Position numbers and translations under genes: made by a program. DNA of 64,000 nucleotides from Heptranchias perlo (Eukaryota), in NCBI RefSeq assembly GCF_035084215.1, contig NC_090337.1, forward strand, positions 36,642,001 through 36,706,000, written 5' to 3'. The notes beneath the pieces are model-generated. The model did no database searches. It was not told where the DNA came from and worked only from the letters and a program-made list of their open reading frames with translations. This document shows positions 16,741-64,000 of the stretch, in pieces; the stretch's first letter is position 1, and every line of letters starts with the position of its first letter.

Positions 16741-17566
16741 CTATACCCTGGTTGTTGAATGTGAATGGGGATGAGGATGAGGAAGGGTGTTATTTTGTCC
16801 TCCAGTAAATGTATTGAATGTGTGGAGAGGCTGCATTCCAGGTATGGTATTTGAAATCATTGTAATGGTGTTAGGGGTCATTAAAGGTATATCATCTGGA
16901 GATCGCCTCATTGCTAATGTATAATCCGGAGGACAGGCTGTCCGCAGAACAACCTCATGTGGATCGATGGAATCACATTCATGATCGAGGCCAGTGTGCT
17001 TCATCTGTAGGGACATCATTTCTTCCTCCTGTGCATGAGCTAGGTCATTGGCCGTATTACGTTGAGGGCTGCATCTTCTATGAACATCGTGCCTCCTCTT
17101 ATCCTTCTTATAATACAATGCTGCAAAGGCAAGGATGTTCAAAAACAATAAGGAGGCTCCAACAGCAATAGTAACACTTAACTCTGTTGAGTAGTCTCTT
17201 TGATCGACCAAGAAAGGACCTGCTGAATGCTTCTGGTCATCCTGCTTGACAGTAGGAAAGACTGATGTCACAGGACGTTTGGTGGTAACAGACCACTTCT
17301 TTGATGGTCTGTGTGTAATTTCAGAAGGGACTTTAGTTGTTGTAGAAGTATACTGAGAAATGTCATTCAGACTATGTAAATGAGGAACCAACTCCAACCA
17401 TAAGTTGACTTTATTAGCTCTATAATGCTCTTTAACACGTGGTTTCAGTCCAATGTGAAGATAGAGCTGATCTTTCTGAGAATACCTCGACCAGGCGACC
17501 TCCTCAAATCGGTTCGGCTTAGTGTGGATAAATTTAGTATCCTGAGGAACAGGTTGATTTGGGTCA
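16741..17566 (-). CDS. NLGN1: Neuroligin-1 last coding exon (end of esterase-like domain, stalk, TM, cytoplasmic tail)
   Basis: Acceptor CCCTGCAG|T, then [25 protein letters not shown]...; [26 protein letters not shown]; [14 protein letters not shown]; ends [16 protein letters not shown] (PDZ ligand). 826 nt, phase-compatible with the previous exon. Confidence 0.97.
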
Positions 17567-18543
17567 CTGCAGGGAATAAATTTGGATTTTATGGATCATC
17601 AAGGAATCACATAAGATGATTTAAAAAAAAATTAACGTTGATTTTTTCCTCAGACATTCCATTATATGCTTTACACATTAGTCACTTCTGTATGGACTTG
17701 CCAATAAATACTGCTGTCTATGCTTTAAAGAAATGATTGCTTAAAACATATATAGTAACGCTAATATAAATTTAACTGTGCAGTACAAACCCTCATCACC
17801 TTTATAAGGTGAATCTTAAGTATTACACAAATGTCACCTTTTTGAAAATTCTTTGGCATTCAATCCATATTTCCAAAAAGTCCTTTTCAACTTTGTTCAG
17901 TACTCAAAGCTAGAATTTCCCCATTTTTAAAAAATTTGGAATCAACTATACTCATAACAAATAATTTCTGGAAAAAAATTCCAATTCAACTTCATTCTGT
18001 TTTTGAGCCATTAAAATAGAATATTTGCTTATTTTAATTTAATTTAATTTATTTCTGTTCCACTCATACTGCAATCTGCCAATCACAATTAAAATATGCT
18101 GTACACCTCAATCAGAACTAATATTTTTAGTGTTCCCTTATAGTATAGATTTCTTCTGGAATTGCTGAGGGTGTATTCAACAGCTGTGGTGGGAATTTCA
18201 GTTTGAGAAAAAATAAACAAGGCACTGTTGAAAAGATTTTTAAATACTTTGGGAAATATTTAAGATGTACCTGTAGGGAATGCAGCTTTAACAATTTTGT
18301 TTTTACTTAATTTTATTGCAACAGGTCATTTCAGTAACAGTCAGAAATATTTAACTTAATCTGAATGAAATCAAAACATGACTGTATTGGTCTCTAGATT
18401 AAAAGCCAGATAATTAGGCAGAGAAGTTGTAAGCAGACAGCAGTCTGGATTAAAAATTCTTTTAATATAATATCAAAATTTGTGAATGAACAATCTTTTT
18501 TGTAGAATCTCAATTACCATTATAGTTCCTGCCCTTTACTTAC

Positions 18544-19333
18544 CCTGTTTTTGCAAAGTTAGTCCAGTATGTCATCACAACGGCGCTTAGCATGACATCA
18601 TTTTTGGAGAAATTACAAGGGAACAGTTCAGTAGCACCAATCATCGGGACCCCAAACACATAAGGGATTTCATCTCCATGAGAAGCATCAGCCCAAGCTG
18701 GCATCATGTCACTCTGGCAGTGATGATAAAAGGCATAGAAGAAAGTGGGTGAACCAAAGCCTGAGTGAAGGTCAGCTGTAGCTACCGCTGGTGCCACCCA
18801 CTGATGGTCAGTAAACAAAGCCAACAACGTTTTCCTCCGTGTTTCTGGATTATGTCGATCCGCCCAATCTGTGTACATGAATTTGATGGTCTCTCTTAGG
18901 ACATCCTTGCCTTCAGGATAACCATACAAGTTATCCACAAAATTAGACACAGCAAAGTCGAAATCACTGGCTGAAACTCCATCCTCATTGTCCACTATGC
19001 TTTCAACAAATTTATATCCCTCACCTTGATTCACTCCCAGCATGATGTCATAGTTAAGGAATTCACCCTGTTCCATTAGAATCTGGGGATCATCGGGTAT
19101 AACATCTCCATCAATGACAGGTCCAAAGGCAATATGGTATCTTGCAGGCTGGATATCTTGTTCAACAAGTTCCTTGTACTGTTTAGAACGTAAGCATTCT
19201 ACCAAGTCAATGGTATCTATCACGTTGCAGCCAACTTTAGTGGCCAACTGCCTTGCAAACTTTGCTGGCTGATAGCTGACTGCCCAGCTGGACAAAGCAG
19301 TACCACTTTGTGCTATTGCTCTCTGAAAAAGTC
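18544..19333 (-). CDS. NLGN1: Neuroligin-1 penultimate coding exon (790 nt)
   Basis: Acceptor CCACAG|GA, donor GG|GTAAGT. Reads (G)[10 protein letters not shown]...[11 protein letters not shown]...[32 protein letters not shown]...YWTNFAKTG. Confidence 0.97.
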
Positions 19334-19916
19334 CTGTGGACAGATATCATAAAGGGTACTAAGATAGTCATCAAGGTTTATTATAACATGTAATTGTTAG
19401 AAGTTAATGGGAACTAGTGGTGGCACTTGGTCATCAAAGTGGTTCAAAAGTATTATTTTACACAAATAATTCTCAATAAAACTCTAAAGGGGCTCAGAAT
19501 TTTATACTGTCTAAATTAACTGGACATAATCCTAGAAAATACTAAAACTCAGACCCATCAAGAAAAAAAACTTTCTGTTGATTATCTATATATTTCACAC
19601 TTCATTTCGCATCCAGTTTTTGGATTATTTGATGCATTCATTTTATATTTGATGAATACTATCAAATTTCCAACCAACATTAGAGCTGCCAAATTCACCA
19701 CAATTCCAATGGCAATGCTGCTCACTTCAAGAACTGGCCAGCAGAAACTCCTAGATTCTACACTATTTATATATATGGATTAATTCAAGTTATAAGAATA
19801 AAATTCTAACATCATTACCTTTGATTGTTTAAACATTTTTCATTACCAGAGAACACAGCTTCCAATTATAACTTATAATTTATTTAAAGATATATAATAT
19901 CTCTGTTCTAACAATT

Positions 19917-20005
19917 CTGATAAAGGGTCTGCACCCAAAACATTAACCTGTCTTTTCTCTTTACAGATGCTGATGTATTTCCAGCATTTTCTGTTTCTAT
20001 TTCAT
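19917..20005 (+). repeat. Partial copy of the palindromic Penelope-like repeat
   Basis: ctgataaagggtctgcacccaaaac...tacagatgctg..tttccagcattttctgttt, matching the right half of 2962-3125. Confidence 0.55.
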
Positions 20006-21630
20006 GCTTTATGTAGGCTTATTGTATATCAATATACTAAGTACTGGTAAAGTCTATCACTTGCTACATTAAGTATCAAGCCCATAACCTAATGTATTAT
20101 AGCAAACAAAATGTTAACAGTTTTGTTTAGTACCTGTTGTAAAGTTATGTACAAATATTATAAATTATGAACAGTAATAAAATAGGGAAAAGAGCAGGTA
20201 TGACTCAATAAACTCCTTCAATAAACAGCTTCAACAACTATGAAAGGAGCGAGAAATAAAATTGACAAGTTATATGAATAACATTGCTAGGAAAAGTCTA
20301 TAAAATATTATAATATATTAGATTTTGCTTTGGAGCAATCAATGGCAAAAAAACAGTATTTTGTGTTAGTCTGTGTATTAATAGCAGCAGCATCTTAATA
20401 AAACTCTGGGCTAAGGCATCTGATCTTAAAGTTGGTTTGCTGGTGTTTGTTCTACAAGAGAACAGCTTCACACATTCTTCTGCCTTAAAGTTTACAGTTT
20501 GGTTAAAAAAACGTCTCCATAGGAGGATAAATGGGTAACCCAAATCTACAGGGATACCAACACGTCGACTAAATGGATTTCCAAGAAACTCATTGAAATT
20601 CTATTTAACTCGAAATGTATTTCAAGTTTAAGAACATAATCCTTGTGGATTGATTTAAAAGTATCAAATATGAGGAAAACCTCTTGCACTTTAAAGGACA
20701 TTACATTGCCTTCCACAAAGGACATGTCAAAAAATACAGAAAACCAAAAGAATCATTTTGAGTCCTGAGAGCCACCACCAAGATTATATACCTGAAAGAA
20801 GACAACATTTCAGAAATTTCCTGCTTTTTTACATTTAACTTTCAATCTCAAAGTAATTTATTTACATTTGCTAGTTTAATTGCAAAATATTTTGAATTCA
20901 AGTTCAAATATAGAATATAAAAAATAGGTTCATTTCAGAAAAAATATTAAATGCTAAACTGCAACCTGCACTTTAGGAAAAAATGACAAGGCAACTACAA
21001 TTCTTTAATCAAATTATTGCACCATGTAAGGAATGGTTCTATGCATCGGCATGACATGATAATTGAAGGAAGATGAAGTATTCAAAACTTAAAGTACATA
21101 AATTGGTCAGTCTATTAATAGACTCCCTTTAAAATGCTCCAAGTTTGAGCTCAATTCATTAATAAGCTTCAAATAAATCATCAATACATAAAAATGTGAT
21201 CATGTCGAATCTTGTCATTTTTGCAGCACTTTCAGCACTTGTATAAAATGGGTAAGTGCAGGCATAAAATTTATTTAAGATCATTGAAACAGACAGCAAA
21301 GATCCTGAGACAAAAGAATCTATGCTGTTAATATTTCAAGTTTTCTCTTAAGTATGTTTAGACAAGTCACAAGTTCTTTGTAAGCCCCAGTGTAACAGGC
21401 TTACGTCTCTCCTCTTTTGAGATAGTGCCTTCCATAAATCATAAAATAGGAAGAAAATATTGGTGCAATTTTGCCAGACAATCATTTGTGAAAGGCACAA
21501 ATTTGCATTAGCAGTACTCTTTCAGGAGATGTTCTCATAATTCAGTTTGTTTTTCAAAAAAAAAATAAAGAAATCACACAACAGTAATGACAGTGGACAA
21601 ACAGAACATAACTGATAGGCAGGCAATGGT

Positions 21631-22638
<1,008 letters not shown>

Positions 22639-27520: not shown

Positions 27521-30505
27521 TAAGAACATAAGAATATAAGAAATAGGAGCATGAGTAGGCCATTCGATAAGATCATGGCTGAGCTTCTACCTCAATTCCA
27601 CTTTCCCACCCTATCCCCATATCCCTTGATTCCCTTATTGTCCAAATATCCATTGATCTCAGTCTTGAATATACTCAATGACTGAGCATCCACAGCCCTC
27701 TGGGGTAGAGAATTCCAAAGATTCACAAACCTCTGAGTGAAGAAATTTTTCCTCATCTCGGTCCTAAATGGCCGACCTGTTATCTTGAGACTATGACCCC
27801 TAGTTCCAGACTCACCTGCAGGGGGAAACAGCCTCTCAGCATCTACTCTGTCAAGCCCTCTAAGAATTTTATACGTTTCAATGAGATCACCTCTCATTCT
27901 TCTAAACTCCAGAGACTACAGGCCCATTCTACTCAATCTCTCCTCATAGGACAACCCAGGAATCAATCTAGTGAACCTTTGTTGCACTCCCTCTAGAGCA
28001 AGTATATCCTTCCTTGGATAAGGAGACCAAAACTGTACACAGTACTCCAGGTGTGGTCTCACCAGAGCCCTGTACAATTGCAGCAAGACCTCCTTACTCT
28101 TGTACTCCAACCTCCTTGCAATAAAGGCTAACATACCATTTGCCTTCCTAATTGCTTGCTGTACCTGCATGTTAACGGTCTGTGATTCATGTACAAGGAC
28201 AGCCAAATCCCTCTGATTACCAACATTTCTTAGTCTCTCACCTTTTAAAAAATATTCTGCTTTTCTATTCTTTCTACCAAAGTGAATAATTTCACATTTC
28301 CCCACATTACACTCCATCTGCCACCTTCTCGCCCACTCACTTAACCTGTCTATATCCCTTTGCAGTCTCTTTGCATCCTCCTCACAGCTTATTTTCCCAC
28401 CTAGCTTTGTATCGTCAGCAAACTTGGATACATTACACTCATCTAAGTCATTGATATATATTGTAAAATGCTAAGGCCCATGCACTAATCCTCGCAGCAC
28501 CCCACCAGTTACAACCTGCCAACCCAAAAATGACCCGTTTATTCCTACTCTCTGTTTTCTGTCCGTTAACCAATCCTCAATCCATGCTAATATATTACCC
28601 CCAATCCCATGAACCCTAATCTTGTGTAACAACCTCTTGTGTGGCACCTTATCGAATGCCTTTTGAAAATCCAAATATACTACATCCAGTGGTTCCCACT
28701 TATTAATCCTGCTAGTTACACCCTCAAAAAATTCTAATAGATTTGTCAAACATGATTTCCCTTTCATAAAACCGTGTTGACTCTGCCTAATCATATCATG
28801 ATTTTCTAAGTGCCCTGTTACTACGTCCTTAATAATACATTCTAGCATTTTCCCTACTACTCATGTCAGGCTTACTGGCCTTTAGTTCCCTGTTTTCTTT
28901 CTTCCTCCTTTCTTGAATAGTGGGGTTACATTTGCTGCCTTCCAATCCACGGGGACTGTTCCAGAATCTAGGGAATTCTGGAAGATCAAAACCAATGCAT
29001 CCACTATCTCTGCAGCAATCTCTTTTAGACCCCTAGGATGTAGGCTATCAGGTCCAGGGGATTTGTCGACTTTTAGTCCCATTAATTTCTCCAGTACTTT
29101 TTCTTTACTAATCTTTATTGCTTTAAGTTCCTCACTCACTCTCATTAGTGCCTTGGTTCCCCACTATTTCTGGTTTGTTTTTTGTGTCTTCTACTGTGAA
29201 GCCAGATACAAAATAATTGTTTAACCTCTCTGCCATTTCCTTATTCCCCTTTATAATTTCTCCTGTCTCTGCCTCTAAGGGACCCAAGTTTACTTTCGTT
29301 AATCTCTTCCTTTTTACATACTTATAGAAGCTCTTAAAATCTGTTTTTATATTTCTTGCTAGTTTACTCCCTATTCAATTTTCTTCCTCTTTATCAATTT
29401 CTTGGTCATCCTTTGCTGATTTCTAAAACCCTCCCAATCCTCAGGCTTACTACTCCTTCTGGCAACATTGTAAGCCTCTGCTTTTAATCTAATACTATCC
29501 TTAACTTCTCTAGTTAGCCACGGGATCATTTTTCCCATGGAGTTTTTATTCTTCAAAGGAATGTATAGTCATTGAGAATTTTGAAATATTTCTTTAAGTG
29601 TTCGCCATTGCTTATCTGCCATCATATCTTTTAATCTAATTTCCCAATCTACCATAGCCAACTCACCCCTTATACCTATATAATTTGCTTTGTTTAAATT
29701 TGAGATCCTAGTTTCGGACTTAACTACATCACTCTCAAACTCAATATGAAATTCTATCATATTATGATCACTCTTTACCAGAGGATCCTTAACTATAAGA
29801 TTACTATTTAACCCTGTGGCATTACCCAATACTAGATTTAAAATAGCCTGTTCCCTAGTTGGTTCCTCTCGACATACTGTTCTAGAAAACTGTCTCGAAT
29901 GTATTCCATGAACTCGTCCTCCAAACTACTTTTGCCAATTTGGTTTGCCTAGTCTATGTGAAGACTAAAGTCCCCCATGATTATTGCATTACCCTTGTTA
30001 CATGCTCCTCTAATTTCCTGATTTATACTCTGTCCAACACTATAACTACTGTTAGGGAGCCTATAAACTACTCCCACCAGTGTTTTCTACCTCTTATTAT
30101 TTCTTAGTTCCACCCATACTGATTCTACATCCTGTTTTTCTGAGCTAAGATCCTTTCTCACTACTGCCTTTATCTCATCCTTAATTATCAGGACTACCCC
30201 CCTCATTTTCCATTTTGCCTATCCATTCTAAAAGTCAAGTACCCTGGATATTTAGTTCCCAACTTTAGTCACCCTGCAAACACGCCTCAGTAATGGCTTC
30301 TAGATCAAACCCATTTATCTCTATCTGTGCCATTAATTCATCTATCTTGTTATGAATGCTTCATGTATTCAGATATAGTGCCTTTAATTTTAACTGTTTA
30401 CTATTTTTCCCTGATGTGACCTTAGTCAATAATGCTCTATTACCTTTGTTAAACTCTCTGTCCCTTCCTGACACATTACTAGTTTTTATCCAAATCGCTA
30501 TTCTG
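27521..30505 (-). mobile_element. CR1 LINE, nearly complete decayed ORF2
   Basis: EN and RT fragments ([72 protein letters not shown]); tail (TTCTTATG)n at 27521-27545; multiple stops. Confidence 0.92.
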
Positions 30506-36825: not shown

Positions 36826-37145
36826 TGGGCAGAGGGAGGTCATTTGGCCCATCATGTCTGTGCTAGCCCTGTATCTTCATCTGCTTCAAGTATTTAACCA
36901 GTTTTCTCTTAAAAGATGCAATGGTCTCTGCCTTAACCACTTCCTGTGGCAGAATACATTACACAGAAGGTATTTGGAGCGTGGAAAGAGATTTCTCCTA
37001 ATCTCTGTCCTTACATTTTTAGTAATAAGTTTAGATTGATGACTTCTTGTCATTGACTCTTCAACCAGAGGAAATAGTCTTTCACTATTCACTCTATTAA
37101 AACCCTTCATAATTTTAAAAGCTTCTATTAAATCTCCTTTTAGTC
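36826..37145 (-). mobile_element. CR1 3' fragment, decayed
   Basis: MKGFNRVNSERLFPLVEESMTRSH...RTEIRRNLF. Confidence 0.75.
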
Positions 37146-37175
37146 TTCTCTGTGAAATAGTCCAGCCGCTGTTTA

Positions 37176-37315
37176 ATGACTGGCAAAGTGGAGATGCTGC
37201 CGCATGTGATGGTTGTGAGGACGAATGCTCTATTTGCCACTTCAGAGTATCCTCTCCAGAGGAAAGCAGTGCAGCATGCCTGGCAGGTGGTGGCAGCCAG
37301 ACTGAACACAGTGTT
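37176..37315 (+). pseudogene. Myb/SANT remnant interrupted by CR1; resumes at about 41755-41810
   Basis: ...HAWQVVAARLNTV | CR1 | MTWEQ/CRRWHNL (frameshifted), matching the W..VA..VN...RTW.QC.K.W/F motif of the other copies. Confidence 0.6.
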
Positions 37316-37856
37316 AGCTGAGAGGAGCCGAGCCGAGCGGAGGGAGCGTCCGATAAAAGGCGGGATTTCAGAGCGCTGAGAACAGCTGAGAGGAGCCGAG
37401 CCGAGCGGAGGGAGCGTCCGATAAAAGGCGGGATTTCAGAGCGCTGAGAACAGCTGAGAGGAGCCGAGCCGAGCGGAGGGAGCGTCCGATAAAAGGCGGG
37501 ATTTCAGAGCGCTGAGAACAGCTGAGAGGAGCCGAGCCGAGCGGAGGGAGCGTCGGATAAAAGGCGGGATTTCAGAGCGCTGAGAACAGCTGAGAGGAGC
37601 CGAGCCGAGCGGAGGGAGCGTCCGATAAAAGGCGGGATTTCAGAGCGCTGAGAACAGCTGAGAGGAGCCGAGCCGAGCGGAGGGAGCGTCGGATAAAAGG
37701 CGGGATTTCAGAGCGCTGAGAACAGCTGAGAGGAGCCGAGCCGAGCGGAGGGAGCGTCGGATAAAAGGCGGGATTTCAGAGCGCTGAGAACAGCTGAGAG
37801 GAGCCGAGCCGAGCGGAGGGAGCGTCGGATAAAAGGCGGGATTTCAGAGCGCTGAG
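37316..37856 (+). repeat. Tandem array of 8 x 68-bp monomers (CR1 5'UTR)
   Basis: Unit AGCTGAGAGGAGCCGAGCCGAGCGGAGGGAGCGTC[C/G]GATAAAAGGCGGGATTTCAGAGCGCTGAGAAC starts at 37316, 37384, 37452, 37520, 37588, 37656, 37724 and 37792; the last unit is slightly truncated. Confidence 0.97.
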
Positions 37857-37867
37857 AGGAGCCGAGC

Positions 37868-38725
37868 GGGAAGTGTGTCCAGCTGCAGCTATTGTTTGAC
37901 CGCTTGACGGCTCTGGAGCTGCGGATGGACTCACTTTGGAGCATCCGCGATGCTGAGAAAGTCGTGGATAGCACGTTCAGTGAGTTGGTCACACCGCAGA
38001 TAAAAATTACTGAGGGAGATAGTGAATGGGTGACCAACCGACAGAGGAAGAGTAGGAAGGCAGTGCAGGGGTCCCCTGCGGTCATCTCCCTCCAAAACAG
38101 GTATACCGTTTTGGATACTGTTGGGGGAGATGGCTCACCAGGGGAAGGTGGCAGTGGCCAGGTTCATGGCACCGTGGCTGGCTCTGCTGCACAGGAGGGC
38201 AGGAAAAAGAGTGGCAGAGCTATAGTGATAGGGGACTCGATTGTAAGGGGAATAGACAGGCGTTTCTGCGGACGCAACCGAGACTCCAGGATGGTATGTT
38301 GCCTCCCTGGTGCAAGGGTCAAGGATGTCTCGGAGCGGCTGCAGGACATTCTGGAGGGGGAGGGTGAACAGCCAGTTGTCGTGGTGCATATAGGCACCAA
38401 TGATATAGGTAAAAAACAGGATGAGGTCCTACAAGCTGAATTTAGGGAGTTAGGAGTTAAACTAAAGAGTAGGACCTCAAAGGTAGTAATCTCAGGATTG
38501 CTACCAGTGCCACGGGTTAGTCAGAGTAGGAATGACAGGATAGCTAAGATGAATACGTGGCTTGAGAGATGGTGCAAGAGGGAGGGATTCAAATTCCTGG
38601 GCCATTGGAACCGGTTCTGGGGGAGGTGGGACCAGTACAAATTGGACGGTCTGCATCTGGGCAGGACTGGAACCAATGTCCTAGGGGGAGTGTTTGCCAG
38701 TGCTGTTGGGGAGGGTTTAAACTAA
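37868..38725 (+). CDS. CR1 ORF1p: partial zinc finger, coiled coil, SGNH/GDSL esterase
   Basis: GKCVQLQLL..LTALELRM; SGNH blocks IVIGDSI, LPGARV, HIGTNDI and DGLHL are intact. The native N-terminus appears to be missing; first ATG at 37925. Confidence 0.88.
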   Translation, partial: GKCVQLQLLFDRLTALELRMDSLWSIRDAEKVVDSTFSELVTPQIKITEGDSEWVTNRQRKSRKAVQGSPAVISLQNRYTVLDTVGGDGSPGEGGSGQVHGTVAGSAAQEGRKKSGRAIVIGDSIVRGIDRRFCGRNRDSRMVCCLPGARVKDVSERLQDILEGEGEQPVVVVHIGTNDIGKKQDEVLQAEFRELGVKLKSRTSKVVISGLLPVPRVSQSRNDRIAKMNTWLERWCKREGFKFLGHWNRFWGRWDQYKLDGLHLGRTGTNVLGGVFASAVGEGLN

Positions 38726-41674
38726 TGTGGCAGGGGGATGGGAACCGATGCAGGAAGTCAGTGGGAAATAAAGTGGTGACAGAAACAAAAGGCAGTAAGG
38801 GAGAGTGCACAGAACATGACCGGACAGATGGTCTGAGAAAGCAGGGCAAAGACCAAGGGAAGTCTAGATTAAACTGCATTTATTTCAATGCAAGAAGTCT
38901 GATGGGCAAGGCAGATGAACTCAGGGCATGGATGGGTACATGGGACTGGGATGTTATAGCTATTACTGAAACATGGATAAGGGAGGGGCAGGACTGGCAG
39001 CTCAATGTTCCAGGGTACAGATGCTATAGGAAAGATAGAGCAGGAGGTAAGAGAGGAGGGGGAGTTGCGTTCTTGATTAGGGAGAACATCACGGCAGTAG
39101 TGAGAGGGGATATATCCGAGGGTTCGCCCACTGAGTCTATATGGGTAGAACTGAAAAATAAGAAGGGAGAGATCACTTTGATCGGATTGTACTACAGACC
39201 CCCAAATAGTCAACGGGAAATTGAGGAGCAAATATGTAAGGAGATTACAGACAGCTGCAAGAAAAATAGGGTGGTAATAGTAGGGGACTTTAACTTTCCC
39301 AACATTGACTGGGACAGCCATAGCATTAGGGGCTTGGATGGAGAGAAATTTGTTGAGTGTATTCAGGAGGAATTTCTCATTCAGTATGTGGATGGCCCGA
39401 CTAGAGAGGGGGCAAAACTTGACCTCCTCTTGGGAAATAAGGAAGGGCAGGTGACAGAAGTGTTAGTGAGGGATCACTTTGGGACCAGTGATCATAATTC
39501 CATTAGTTTCAAGATAGCTATGGAGAAGGATAGGTCTGGCCCAAAAGTTAAAATTCTAAATTGGGGAAAGGCCAATTTTGATGGTATTAGACAGGAACTT
39601 TCAGAAGTTGATTGGGAGAGTCTGTTGGCAGGCAAAGGGACGTCTGGTAAGTGGGAGGCTTTCAAAAGTGTGTTAACCAGGGTTCAGGGTAAGCACATTC
39701 CTTATAAAGTGAAGGGCAAGGCTGGTAGAAGTAGGGAACCTTGGATGACTCGGGAGATTGAGGCACTAGTCAAAAAGAAGAAGGAGGCATATGACATGCA
39801 TAGGCAGCTGGGATCAAGTGGATACCTTGAAGAGTATAGAGATTGCCGGAGTAGAGTTAAGAGAGAAATCAGGAGGGCAAAAAGGGGATATGAGATTGCT
39901 TTGGCAGATCAGGCAAAGGTGAATCCAAAGAGCTTCTACAAATACATAAAGGGCAAAAGGGTAACTAGGGAGAGAGTAGGGCCTCTTAAGGATCAACAAG
40001 GTCATCTATGTGCGGAACCACAAGAGATGGGTGAGATCCTGAATGAATATTTCACATCGGTATTTACGGTTGAGAAAGGCATGGATGTTAGGGAACTTGG
40101 GGAAATAAATAGTGATGTCTTGAGGAGTGTACATATTACAGAGAGGGAGGTGCTGGAAGTCTTAACGCGCATCAAGGTAGATAAATCTCCGGGACCTGAT
40201 GAAATGTATCCCAGGACGTTATGGGAGGTTAGGGAGGAAATTGCGGGTCCCCTAGCAGAGATATTTGAATCATCCACCGCTACAGGTGAGGTGCCTGAAG
40301 ATTGGAGGGTAGCAAATGTTGTGCCTTTGTTTAAGAAGGGCGGCAGGGAAAAGCCTGGGAACTACAGACCAGTGAGCCTGACATCTGTAGTGGGTAAGTT
40401 GTTAGAGGGTATTCTGAGGGACAGGATCTACAGGCATTTGGAGAGGCAGGGACTAATTAGGAACAGTCAGCATGGTTTTGTGAGAGGAAAATCATGTCTC
40501 ACGAATTTGATTGAGTTTTTTGAAGGGGTAACCAAGAAGATAGATGAGGGCTGTGCAGTAGACGTGGTCTACATGGACTTCAGCAAAGCATTTGACAAAG
40601 TACCGCAAGGTAGGTTGTTACATAAGGTTAAATCTCATGGGATCCAAGGTGAGGTAGCCAATTGGATACAAAATTGGCTTGACGACAGAAGACAGAGGGT
40701 GGTTGTAGAGGGTTGTTTTTCAAACTGGATGCCTGTGTCCAGCGGTGTGCCTCAGGGATCGGTGCTGGGTCCGCTGTTATTTGTTATTTATATTAATGAT
40801 TTGGATGAGAATTTAGGAGGCATGGTTAGTAAGTTTGCAGATGACACCAAGATTGGTGGCATTGTGGACAGTGAAGAAGGTTATCTAGGATTGCAACGGG
40901 ATCTTGATAAATTGGGCCAGTGGGCCGATGAATGGCAGATGGAGTTTAATTTAGATAAATGTGAGGTGATGCATTTTGGTAGATCGAATCGGGCCAGGAC
41001 CTACTCCGTTAATGGTAGGGCGTTGGGGAGAGTTATAGAACAAAGAGATCTGGGAGTACAGATTCATAGCTCCTTGAAAGTGGAGTCACAGGTGGATAGG
41101 GTGGTGAAGAAGGCATTCAGCATGCTTGGTTTCATTGGTCAGAACATTGAATGCAGGAGTTGGGATGTCTTGTTGAAGTTGTACAGGGCATTGGTGAGGC
41201 CACACTTGGAGTACTGTGTACAGTTCTGGTCACCCTATTATAGAAAGGATATTATTAAACTAGAAAGAGTGCAGAAAAGATTTACGAGGATGCTACCGGG
41301 ACTTGATGGTTTGACTTACAGGGAGAGGTTGGACAGACTGGGACTTTTTTCCCTGGAGAGTAGGAGGTTAAGGGGAGATCTTATAGAAGTCTATAAAATA
41401 ATGAGGGGCATAGATAAGGTCGATAGTCAAAATCTTTTCCCAAAGGTAGGGGAGTCTATAACGAGGGGGCACAGATTTAAGGTGAGAGGGGAGAGATACA
41501 AAAGGGTCCAGAGGGGCAATTTTTTTCACTCAAAGGGTGGTGAGTGTCTGGAACGAGCTGCCAGAGGCAGTAGTAGAGGCGGGTACAATTTTGTCTTTTA
41601 AAAAGCATTTGGACAGTTACATGGGTAAGATGGGTATCGAGGGATATGGGCCAAGTGCAGGCAATTGGGACTAG
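38725..41674 (+). CDS. CR1 ORF2p: APE endonuclease plus reverse transcriptase (one +1 frameshift near 41520)
   Basis: EN motifs FNARSL, ITETW, YYRPP, GDFNFP, SDH; RT motifs [25 protein letters not shown]. Removing one T from the T7 run restores FFTQRVVSVWNELP...GNWD-TAG (41672-41674). Confidence 0.93.
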
Positions 41675-42414
41675 CTTAGTGGTATAAACTGGGCGACATG
41701 GACATGTTGGGCCGAAGGGCCTGTTTCCATGTTGTAACTTCTATGATTCTATGAAATGACTTGGGAACAGATGCAGAAGATGGCACAACTTAAGGGAACT
41801 GCCAAGATAAGACTACCCAACAGTATCATTTACAAGGTGAATGCTCCAATTATTCATACCACAAAGCGTTACCTATTACACTGTTCTACTCTAACTGCTG
41901 GTACATGCTAAGCCCCTACACAACTTTACATCTCTTTCTTTGCTTCTCATGTATACCCAAGTTCTAGCATTCAAGCTGGAACTTACAATTGACAAGCTTG
42001 CCACATGCAAAATGGTCTTTTTACATAAAATCAATCCAACAGAATTGACACGAAGGGTGTGCTTTGTGTCAGTTGTGTAGCAATCATTTTACACAAACAG
42101 TGATCAACACATAAAGTGGACTTCTGGGAAGTAAAATCCCTGGAATTATTTAAGAGATAACTAGATGCTGTGAATGAGACCTTGAGGGTTTTTCAGGAAG
42201 GATGAATTAAGCTGGGCCAAAAGGCCTTCTTCATCCATATTTATCTTGTGATATAAATGCTCTTTCAACTTGCAACATGCCAAGACTACTCCTCTAATTG
42301 TGTTACAAGATGTCACATATGATAAGGGAGCAGATCCAAACCGGAGGAGGGCTCAGAAATTAAAAGTCCTTAATTCCCCTGGAGGAGGTCACTCTGGACA
42401 TCCATTCACATAAC

Positions 42415-62549: not shown

Positions 62550-64000
62550 TTGGATAAAGGCAATGCAGTAGATGTGGTGTATATGGGATTTCAAAAGGCT
62601 ATTTTAAATCTTGTCTTGTGTAATGAGACAGGGTTAATTAGTAATCTCATCGTATGAGATCCTCTGGGGCAGAGTAATCATAATATGATAGAATTTCACA
62701 TTGAATTCGAGAGTGATTAAGTTTGGAACTAGAGTCTTAAACTTAAACAAAGCCAATTACATAGATATGAGGGGTGAGTTGGTGAAGGTTGATTGGGAGA
62801 TTAGATTAAAAGATATGATGGTAGATAAGCATTGGTGAACATTTAAATAAATATTTCATAATTCTCAACGAATATAAATTCCATGGAGGAATAAAAACTT
62901 CACGGAAAAAGCGATCCATCCGTGGCCAACTAAAGAAGTTAAGGATAATATTAGATTTAAAAAAGAGGCTTATAATGTTGCCAAGAAGAGTAGTAAGCCT
63001 GAGAATTGGAAGGGTTTTAGAAATCAGCAAAGGATGTCCAAAAAATTGATACGAGGGAGAAAGTGGAATATGAGAATAAACAAGCAAGAAATATAAAAAC
63101 AGACTGTAAGAACTTTTACAAGAGTTTAAAAAGGAAGAGAGTAGAAGTAGAAGACAAAGCAGAAAACACAAAAAAATACCAGAAATAGTGGAGAACCAAG
63201 GGTTTAATGAGAGTGAGGAACTTAAAGTAATTAAGATTAGTAAAGAAAAAGTACTGGAGAAATTAATGGGACTAAAAGCTGACATATCCCCGAACCTGAT
63301 GGGCTACATTCTAGGGTTCTAAAAGAGGTGGCTGCAGAGATAGTGGATGCAGGATCATTGGTTGTGATCTTCCAAAATTCCCTAGATTCTAGAACTGTCC
63401 CAATGGATTGAAAGGTAGCAAAAGTAACACAGCTAGTCAAGAAAGGTGGGAGAGAGAAAACAGGGAACTACAGGCCAGTTAGCTTGACATCGGTCGTCGG
63501 GAAAATGCTGGAATCTATTATTAAGGATGTGGTAACAGAGCACTGAGAAAATCGTAATACGATTAGGCAGAGTCAACATGGTTTTACGAAAGGGAAATCA
63601 TGTTTGACAAATTTATTAGAGTATTTTGAGGATGTAACTAGTAGGGTAGATAAAGGGGAACCAGTGGATGTAGTATATTTGGATTTTCAAAAGGCATTCG
63701 ATAAGGTGCCACACGAAAGGTTGTTACACAAGATAAGGGCTCATGAGATTGGGGGTAATATATTAGTATGGATGGAGGATTGGTTAACGGACAGAAAACA
63801 GAGAGAAGGAATAAATGGGTCATTTTCAGTTTGGCAAACTGTTACTAGTGAGGTGCCACAAGGATCAGTGCTGGGGCCTCAGCTATTTACAATCTATATT
63901 AATGACTTAGATGAAGGGACCGAGTGCAATGTATCCAAGTTTGCTGACGATACAAAGCTAGGTGGGAAAGTAAGCTGTGGGGAGAACACTAAGGGCTCGA
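62550..64000 (+). mobile_element. CR1 ORF2 fragment (subfamily of 27521-30505), running off the window end
   Basis: [55 protein letters not shown]; many stops. Confidence 0.9.

What the first reader, a model, noticed from the sequence alone, without database searches (positions are those of the whole stretch)
37316..37856. CR1 with a mouse-L1-style tandem monomer 5' end
Eight 68-bp units differ at one site only (order C,C,C,G,C,G,G,G). Each has 7 undecayed CpGs, a GATAAAAGG box and GGCGGGA. Tandem monomer promoters are established for rodent L1; I do not know of this being well described for vertebrate CR1. The array also places a new CpG island and potential antisense promoter inside NLGN1.
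Basis: partly seen in the sequence, partly recalled or inferred. Interest (0 to 1): 0.7.

Follow-up and report, generated by a model that had tools for sequence, protein, structure and literature searches.

The report
CR1 retrotransposon with expendable TATA promoters

Summary
Observation confirmed: eight 68-bp units, one variable site, 7 CpG each. It is not a local expansion. The unit core occurs 7,988 times and the following 'tether' 1,178 times genome-wide; 96 sampled copies carry 1-24 units ahead of a CR1-type body (about 1% divergence; 48 of 97 with both ORFs open). Of 93 independent 5' ends, 59 lie 29-37 nt below the GATAAAAG box of a unit that is no longer there. Ends shift about 10 nt in arrays holding a unit 10 bp shorter (13/17 versus 4/19). 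A sister family with an unrelated TATAAA monomer shows the same offset (17/27). Best reading: each unit's TATA-like box starts RNA in the next unit; arrays lose units per jump and regrow. Promoter activity is inferred, not measured. Intact CpGs reflect youth; an effect on NLGN1 is unsupported. Works like mouse L1 monomers, but TATA-based and in CR1; not found in 10 paper searches. The scan noted the same layout before in at least nine genomes.

The parts
37316..37869 (+). Monomer array: seven 68-bp units, an eighth lacking 10 bp, and a 16-bp partial ninth unit
37316..37316 (+). 5' end of the element (A of the CAGCT start region), 32 nt below where the G of the preceding unit's box would lie; no target-site duplication found
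37352..37359 (+). First TATA-like box GATAAAAG (repeated every 68 bp to 37828-37835); predicted to direct starts in the next unit
   Evidence: sequence; 5'-end phasing; TATA consensus recalled
37866..37869 (+). 4-bp microhomology GCGG at a private 412-bp deletion that removed the tether, the ORF1 ATG and the first CxxC pair
   Evidence: (junction found once in the genome)
37870..38725 (+). ORF1 remnant: second CxxC half, coiled-coil-like stretch, SGNH/GDSL esterase domain; first in-frame ATG at 37925
   Evidence: PF13472 E 5.8e-13; PDB 4c1b E 1.7e-31
38725..41601 (+). ORF2: AP endonuclease plus reverse transcriptase; 958 aa against 982 in kin, frame shifted in a T-run near 41520
   Evidence: (PF03372, PF14529, PF00078)
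41738..41754 (+). 3' octamer tail (two NTTCTATG units)
16744..22600 (-). Three 3' coding exons of neuroligin-1 (about 22.4-22.6 kb, 18543-19346, 16744-17595); the element lies upstream of them on the opposite strand, inferred to be intronic
   Evidence: the upstream exons were not found in the window

Best explanation
This is a broken copy of a young CR1 LINE family whose 5' end is a row of monomers, each likely a small RNA polymerase II promoter whose TATA-like box would start RNA about 30-32 nt downstream, at the start of the next unit. Shown: family-wide arrays of 1-24 units plus tether, 5' ends phased below the box, the same phase with an unrelated monomer in a sister family, and arrays that differ between near-identical copies. 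Inferred: the firing unit lies upstream of the start and is not copied, so each daughter has at least one unit fewer; arrays regrow by slippage, unequal exchange or template jumps; new monomers replace or stack in front of old ones. This copy lost the tether and ORF1 start at a 4-bp microhomology and has an ORF2 frameshift, so it is likely not autonomous, though its array could still fire antisense to NLGN1.
For: Unit core 7,988 hits, tether 1,178, reversed controls 0. Units per copy 1-24, median 5, n=96. 59 of 93 independent 5' ends lie 29-37 nt below the G of the lost box; the best 9-nt window in 20,000 uniform simulations held 29; only 8 of 93 lie between the box and offset 28. Ends shifted about 10 nt come from arrays with a 10-bp-shorter unit: 13 of 17 against 4 of 19 for ends that could come from either unit type, Fisher p=0.001. 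Sister family B (512 tether hits): 69-bp monomer with GATATAAAC and TCAGT 31 nt below; 17 of 27 ends in the same pre-set window, p=2e-9; a 266-bp monomer stacked in front gives 13 of 37 by script and 6 more by eye. No significant similarity between the monomers (best E=1.0). Units fold no better than shuffles (z -0.36 to 0.47) and match no Rfam family at gathering score. Copies 4-8 substitutions apart in 3.9 kb have arrays that are not suffixes of one another. In mouse the same truncation-profile inference agreed with CAGE (PMC6454616, passages).
Against: No start site was observed: only contigs were available and they cannot show RNA ends. GATAAAAG departs from the TATA consensus (recalled) at its first base. 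Ends spread over about 9 nt, 34 of 93 fall outside the window, and chance matches blur junctions. The 58-bp test weakens with a wider comparison class (7/22, p=0.007; 10/26, p=0.016), the shifted class has longer arrays (9.8 against 7.1 units), periodic arrays do not always predict the shift (one search lists), and 2 ends (L093, L111) sit where a downstream-measured start would. The box of the 266-bp monomer was chosen after seeing the ends. A third sister family shows no TATA array in the 9 loci seen. All 96 family copies came from one contig.
Confidence: 0.75

Rival explanations
1. Each monomer is an internal, downstream-acting promoter as in mouse L1 or Inr-plus-downstream-element LINEs: the CAGCTG E-box or sequences below the start fix initiation, the A/T box is incidental, and a single unit can rebuild itself.
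For: The start region holds an E-box; E-boxes are reported in vertebrate CR1 5' UTRs (PMC2734521 section 8). Two ends fit a downstream-measured start. 11 of 96 copies were scored with one unit, though four of them share one flank.
Against: Ends shift when the box-to-start segment is 10 bp shorter. Monomers with different downstream sequence keep the same offset from an A/T box. The box varies among TATA-like forms: GATAAAAG, CATAAAAAG, GATATAAAC.
Confidence: 0.13
2. The array is a GC-rich minisatellite in the 5' UTR; the promoter is the tether (CRE-like and CCAAT-like motifs) or host read-through, and phased ends come from reverse-transcriptase stops, RNA cleavage or joining bias.
For: The tether carries TGACGTCA and ATTGG. 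Some family C copies carry a 20-bp GC-rich minisatellite in this position. Two copies show inverted array pieces at the junction, which points to snap-back joining near the palindrome.
Against: A tether promoter cannot make RNA holding up to 24 upstream units. There is no stable structure or ribozyme match. The sharp upstream edge at offset 29-30 recurs in unrelated sequences.
Confidence: 0.1
3. Local tandem expansion or assembly artefact at this one insertion.
For: The unit order here is unique, and a rare G variant (42 hits genome-wide) fills 4 of 8 units.
Against: The family count and arrays in other copies. The two nearest kin (0.10% and 0.13%) carry the same G variant in their tether-proximal units. 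Contigs of runs from two other organisms match the unit.
Confidence: 0.02

Closest known systems
Mouse L1Md monomer promoters (A, Gf, Tf) and rat L1 (PMC6454616 passages; PMC5381506 passages)
   Same: Tandem CpG-rich monomers at the extreme 5' end, variable number, a tether before ORF1, 5' ends phased within the monomer, replacement of monomer types, unresolved regrowth mechanism.
   Different: CR1-type not L1 element; 58-69-bp rather than about 200-bp units; ends phased about 30 nt below a TATA-like box rather than near YY1 or AP-1 sites ('TATA' occurs 0 times in PMC6454616); unrelated sequence, so likely convergent.
Chicken, turtle and pufferfish CR1-type 5' UTRs (PMC2734521 section 8; PMC4316615 passages)
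   Same: Same element type; E-boxes; subfamilies with different 5' UTRs; a 32-bp direct repeat is reported in turtle and pufferfish 5' UTRs.
   Different: No long variable arrays or TATA phasing in the passages read; exact CR1 5' ends are described as hard to determine. The primary turtle and pufferfish papers could not be read, so the precedent may be closer than seen.
Drosophila HeT-A tandem promoter and Penelope pseudo-LTR tandems (recalled, not checked here)
   Same: A repeat upstream donates the promoter for the copy behind it.
   Different: There the donor is the 3' end of a whole neighbouring element; here it is a dedicated short unit amplified at the 5' end.

Membership tests
CR1-clade LINE | ORF2 with AP endonuclease then reverse transcriptase | tested here: met
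   Pfam PF03372/PF14529 at 54-260, PF00078 at 540-774
CR1-clade LINE | ORF1 with zinc finger, coiled coil and SGNH esterase | tested here: met
   Family ORF1 of 315 aa starts with CxxC...CxxC; esterase. The window copy lacks the first CxxC. Coiled coil judged by eye.
CR1-clade LINE | 3' octamer microsatellite, no poly(A) | tested here: met
   NTTCTATG tails in the 88 of 93 copies whose 3' end was located; feature per PMC4316615
CR1-clade LINE | Short or absent target-site duplications (recalled) | tested here: met
   58 of 88 had no shared string of 4 bp or more; 29 had 4-6 bp; 1 had 11 bp in a CT repeat
CR1-clade LINE | RT phylogeny with named CR1 rather than L2 references | not tested
   No named reference sequences were fetched
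Rodent L1 monomer promoter | Tandem monomers of variable number at the extreme 5' end plus tether | tested here: met
   1-24 units, then 319 bp to the ORF1 ATG
Rodent L1 monomer promoter | 5' ends share a phase within the monomer | tested here: met
   59 of 93 in 9 of 68 phases
Rodent L1 monomer promoter | Start near a YY1 or AP-1 site, no TATA box | tested here: not met
   The unit shows no GCCATCTT motif (sequence); ends are phased below a TATA-like box
Rodent L1 monomer promoter | Belongs to an L1-clade element | tested here: not met
   Esterase ORF1 and octamer tail
Rodent L1 monomer promoter | Promoter activity that rises with monomer number | not testable with these tools
   Needs a reporter assay
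TATA/Inr core promoter | A/T box about 30 nt above the start | tested here: inconclusive
   Met for element 5' ends in families A and B; RNA starts were not observed
TATA/Inr core promoter | TBP binding and dependence on the box | not testable with these tools
   Needs binding and mutation assays
5' self-cleaving ribozyme LINE ends | Conserved ribozyme fold at the 5' end | tested here: not met
   No Rfam match above noise; folding z-scores near 0

The most novel reading that the evidence does not exclude
Cartilaginous-fish CR1 LINEs break the rule that LINE promoters are internal: they run on ordinary upstream TATA promoters kept as a consumable, self-regrowing stack, have gained such stacks repeatedly from unrelated sequence (three monomer types here, one stacked on another), and scatter more than a thousand multi-TATA CpG-rich promoters whose splice donor feeds host genes.
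Probability: 0.6. Interest if true: 0.75.

Novelty: new variant of a known kind. Interest (0 to 1): 0.62.

Why it matters
An RNA-copied element cannot copy a promoter that lies upstream of its start, which is why LINE promoters are usually internal. A TATA-based stack is a second solution, parallel to rodent L1 but in another LINE clade and vertebrate lineage. How monomer arrays regrow is still open in mouse (PMC6454616). Here about 1,200 young copies, a sharp start phase, marked unit variants and sibling pairs only 0.1% apart make loss and regrowth per jump measurable. It also gives exact CR1 5' ends, which are hard to define in amniotes. This particular copy matters little.

Tried and rejected
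DNA search of the genome with two units returned nothing because common words are skipped; patterns were used instead. The idea that the tether holds an intron spliced within the element was not supported: no spliced genomic copy and no such joint in RNA-like contigs; the depth step near the tether's end is explained by a third family that joins there (206 pattern hits, 9 of 12 loci seen). CpG decay as a methylation test was inconclusive: CpG transitions 0.5% per site in arrays against 1.1% in bodies, confounded by unit turnover. No RNA holder was listed on record; X5-X8 are guessed RNA, one sample, contigs only, so no start, strand or level. Contig depth was not used. Ribozyme or hairpin: nothing. 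ESM Atlas gave no answer. Two primary papers were not held. Ten paper searches found no description of TATA-monomer arrays in CR1; Repbase and Dfam notes and most subscription papers are outside the library, and no supplements were read. Dropped rows: 4 of 97 copies that share flanks (L072, L086, L091, L118); 4 of the 100 listed tether hits were not fetched; in family B 6 of 70 loci were not scored (2 ran off the locus, 3 ended in the linker, 1 had no unit). The organism is called shark-like from recall and earlier notes, not from a tool.

Full report
Observation. The array is as described: 37316-37857, period 68, eight copies, 99% matches, one variable site in the order C,C,C,G,C,G,G,G, seven CpG per unit. 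It heads a LINE on the + strand with an esterase ORF1 remnant, an endonuclease/reverse-transcriptase ORF2 and an octamer tail, the anatomy of a CR1-type element; clade placement by tree was not tested. Three exons on the - strand match neuroligin-1 best. The earlier exons are not in the window, so the element is inferred to be intronic and antisense.

It is a family feature. A 28-nt unit core has 7,988 exact hits in the 3.25-Gb genome and the sequence that follows the array (tether) 1,178, with 0 for reversed controls. A 3'-end pattern has 19,575 hits, so about 6% of copies reach the tether if that pattern is family-specific, which I did not test. I fetched 96 of the 100 listed tether hits, all on contig C1. 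They carry 1-24 units, median 5, mean 6.7, with spacings of 68 (411 of 556), 58 (104) and 63 bp (35). Bodies differ by about 1% (112 near-complete bodies), and 48 of 97 copies have both ORFs open. The family is young.

This copy is broken. Relatives have 319 bp of tether (CRE-like TGACGTCA, ATTGG, a splice donor), then a 315-aa ORF1 starting with a CxxC...CxxC finger. Here a partial ninth unit joins ORF1 at about codon 31 through the 4-bp microhomology GCGG, a loss of 412 bp against four relatives. The junction occurs once in the genome. ORF2 has a frameshift near 41520 (958 against 982 aa). The nearest kin, L134 and L132, are 0.10% and 0.13% away, intact, and share the rare G variant in their last units. 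So the G variant was inherited, the deletion is private, and intact CpGs need no explanation beyond youth.

Where copies begin. After dropping 4 copies with shared flanks, 59 of 93 5' ends lie 29-37 nt below the G of the GATAAAAG box of a unit that would precede the array but is absent. The window was picked after seeing the data; the best 9-nt window in 20,000 uniform simulations held 29 ends. The edge is sharp: 8 ends lie between the box and offset 28. A TATA box starts RNA about 30 nt downstream (recalled), and for full-length LINE insertions the 5' end marks the parent's start; that inference agreed with CAGE in mouse (PMC6454616, passages). A natural variant tests upstream against downstream measurement. 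The 58-bp unit lacks 10 bp between box and start, so starts should move 10 nt. Ends at that shifted position come from arrays with a short unit in 13 of 17 cases against 4 of 19 for the nearest unshifted ends that either unit could give (p=0.001); with wider classes 7 of 22 (p=0.007) and 10 of 26 (p=0.016). The shifted class also has longer arrays, and two ends fit a downstream-measured start, so this is moderate support.

Replication with other monomers. A sister family B (81-84% identical in tether and ORF1; 512 hits) has a 69-bp monomer without significant similarity to the first. It contains GATATAAAC and TCAGT 31 nt below. Of 70 loci, 27 end in this array, 17 of them in the pre-set window (p=2e-9). 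In 37 others a 266-bp monomer is stacked in front; 13 end 29-37 nt below a TAGAAATA box by script and 6 more by eye, but that box was chosen afterwards and 4 ends stay unresolved. An older variant of the first unit has CATAAAAAG. A third family shows other 5' regions without such arrays in 9 loci. Folding and Rfam give no structural or ribozyme cause for the phase.

Mechanism. Shown: arrays, tether, phasing, replacement and stacking of monomers. Inferred: the box in unit n starts RNA at unit n+1; the firing unit is not copied; daughters are shorter. Regrowth must follow, and arrays do turn over fast: pairs 4-8 substitutions apart in 3.9 kb share only 0-3 terminal units (39 non-identical pairs printed), and 12 of 44 array-private variants occur in more than one unit. 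Whether regrowth happens in DNA or during copying is not resolved; both are proposed for mouse.

Host effects. In contigs of runs guessed to be RNA (one sample), the tether's donor is joined to two distant sequences, each preceded in the genome by a canonical acceptor: the first coding exon of a CoA-transferase III gene (AMACR-like, name recalled) 38.5 kb below a family B copy, and a site 43 kb below an older family A copy. The donor is therefore used. This does not show where transcription began: a host CpG-rich region lies upstream in both cases. The window copy has lost this donor, and nothing here shows an effect on NLGN1.

Comparison and novelty. It works like rodent L1 monomer promoters (PMC5381506 and PMC6454616, passages) but is not one: CR1-type element, short units, TATA-like phasing. 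A 32-bp direct repeat and E-boxes are reported in turtle and pufferfish CR1-type 5' UTRs (PMC2734521 section 8); I could not read the primary papers. Ten searches found no description of TATA-monomer arrays in CR1 (listings seen). PMC3747384, PMC5381603 and PMC4316615 were read as passages only. The scan's own notes report the same layout in at least nine genomes and once elsewhere in this one; these are unchecked AI notes, my reading was recorded before the look-up, and they are not counted as support. Verdict: real, family-wide, a new variant of a known kind; TATA relay 0.75; interest 0.62.

Noticed in passing
L158-L227 (family B, 512 tether hits): Sister CR1 family with a 69-bp TATAAA monomer (and a 37-bp short form); over half of the sampled copies have a second, 266-bp monomer stacked in front, joined through a splice-acceptor-like linker.
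   Followed up: yes
L148:1280-1532 and L152:9242: The CR1 tether donor is spliced onto the first coding exon of a CoA-transferase III (AMACR-like) gene in three RNA-like runs; the CR1 5' UTR may serve as a host non-coding exon.
   Followed up: partly
L228:1501 and L245: Second chimeric splice from the same donor motif to an acceptor 43 kb below an older family A copy.
   Followed up: partly
L230-L234, L236-L240: Third family sharing ORF1 and the tether's end but with other 5' regions; L233 and L237 carry long 20-bp GC-rich minisatellites there.
   Followed up: partly
L229, L235, L245: Older 69-bp form of the family A unit with a CATAAAAAG box.
   Followed up: partly
L043: Chimera: family A array and tether up to the donor, joined to a family B body near the ORF2 start.
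   Followed up: no
L064, L110: Inverted pieces of the array directly upstream of the 5' end, suggesting snap-back at the CAGCTG palindrome.
   Followed up: no
L059, L072, L086, L091: Four dispersed one-unit copies share the same upstream flank, so they belong to a larger composite repeat.
   Followed up: no
window 38716-38727: ORF1 ends in TTTAAAC followed by a stop that overlaps the ORF2 ATG (TAATG): possible frameshift or stop-restart junction.
   Followed up: no
window 36886-37260 (-), 27866-28947 (-), 63406-63914 (+): Older CR1-like fragments; the element sits next to one of them.
   Followed up: no
L045:1780-1894 laid with runs X9, X10: Contigs from two other organisms match the monomer (95 nt with 2 differences; 94 nt with 8).
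   Followed up: partly
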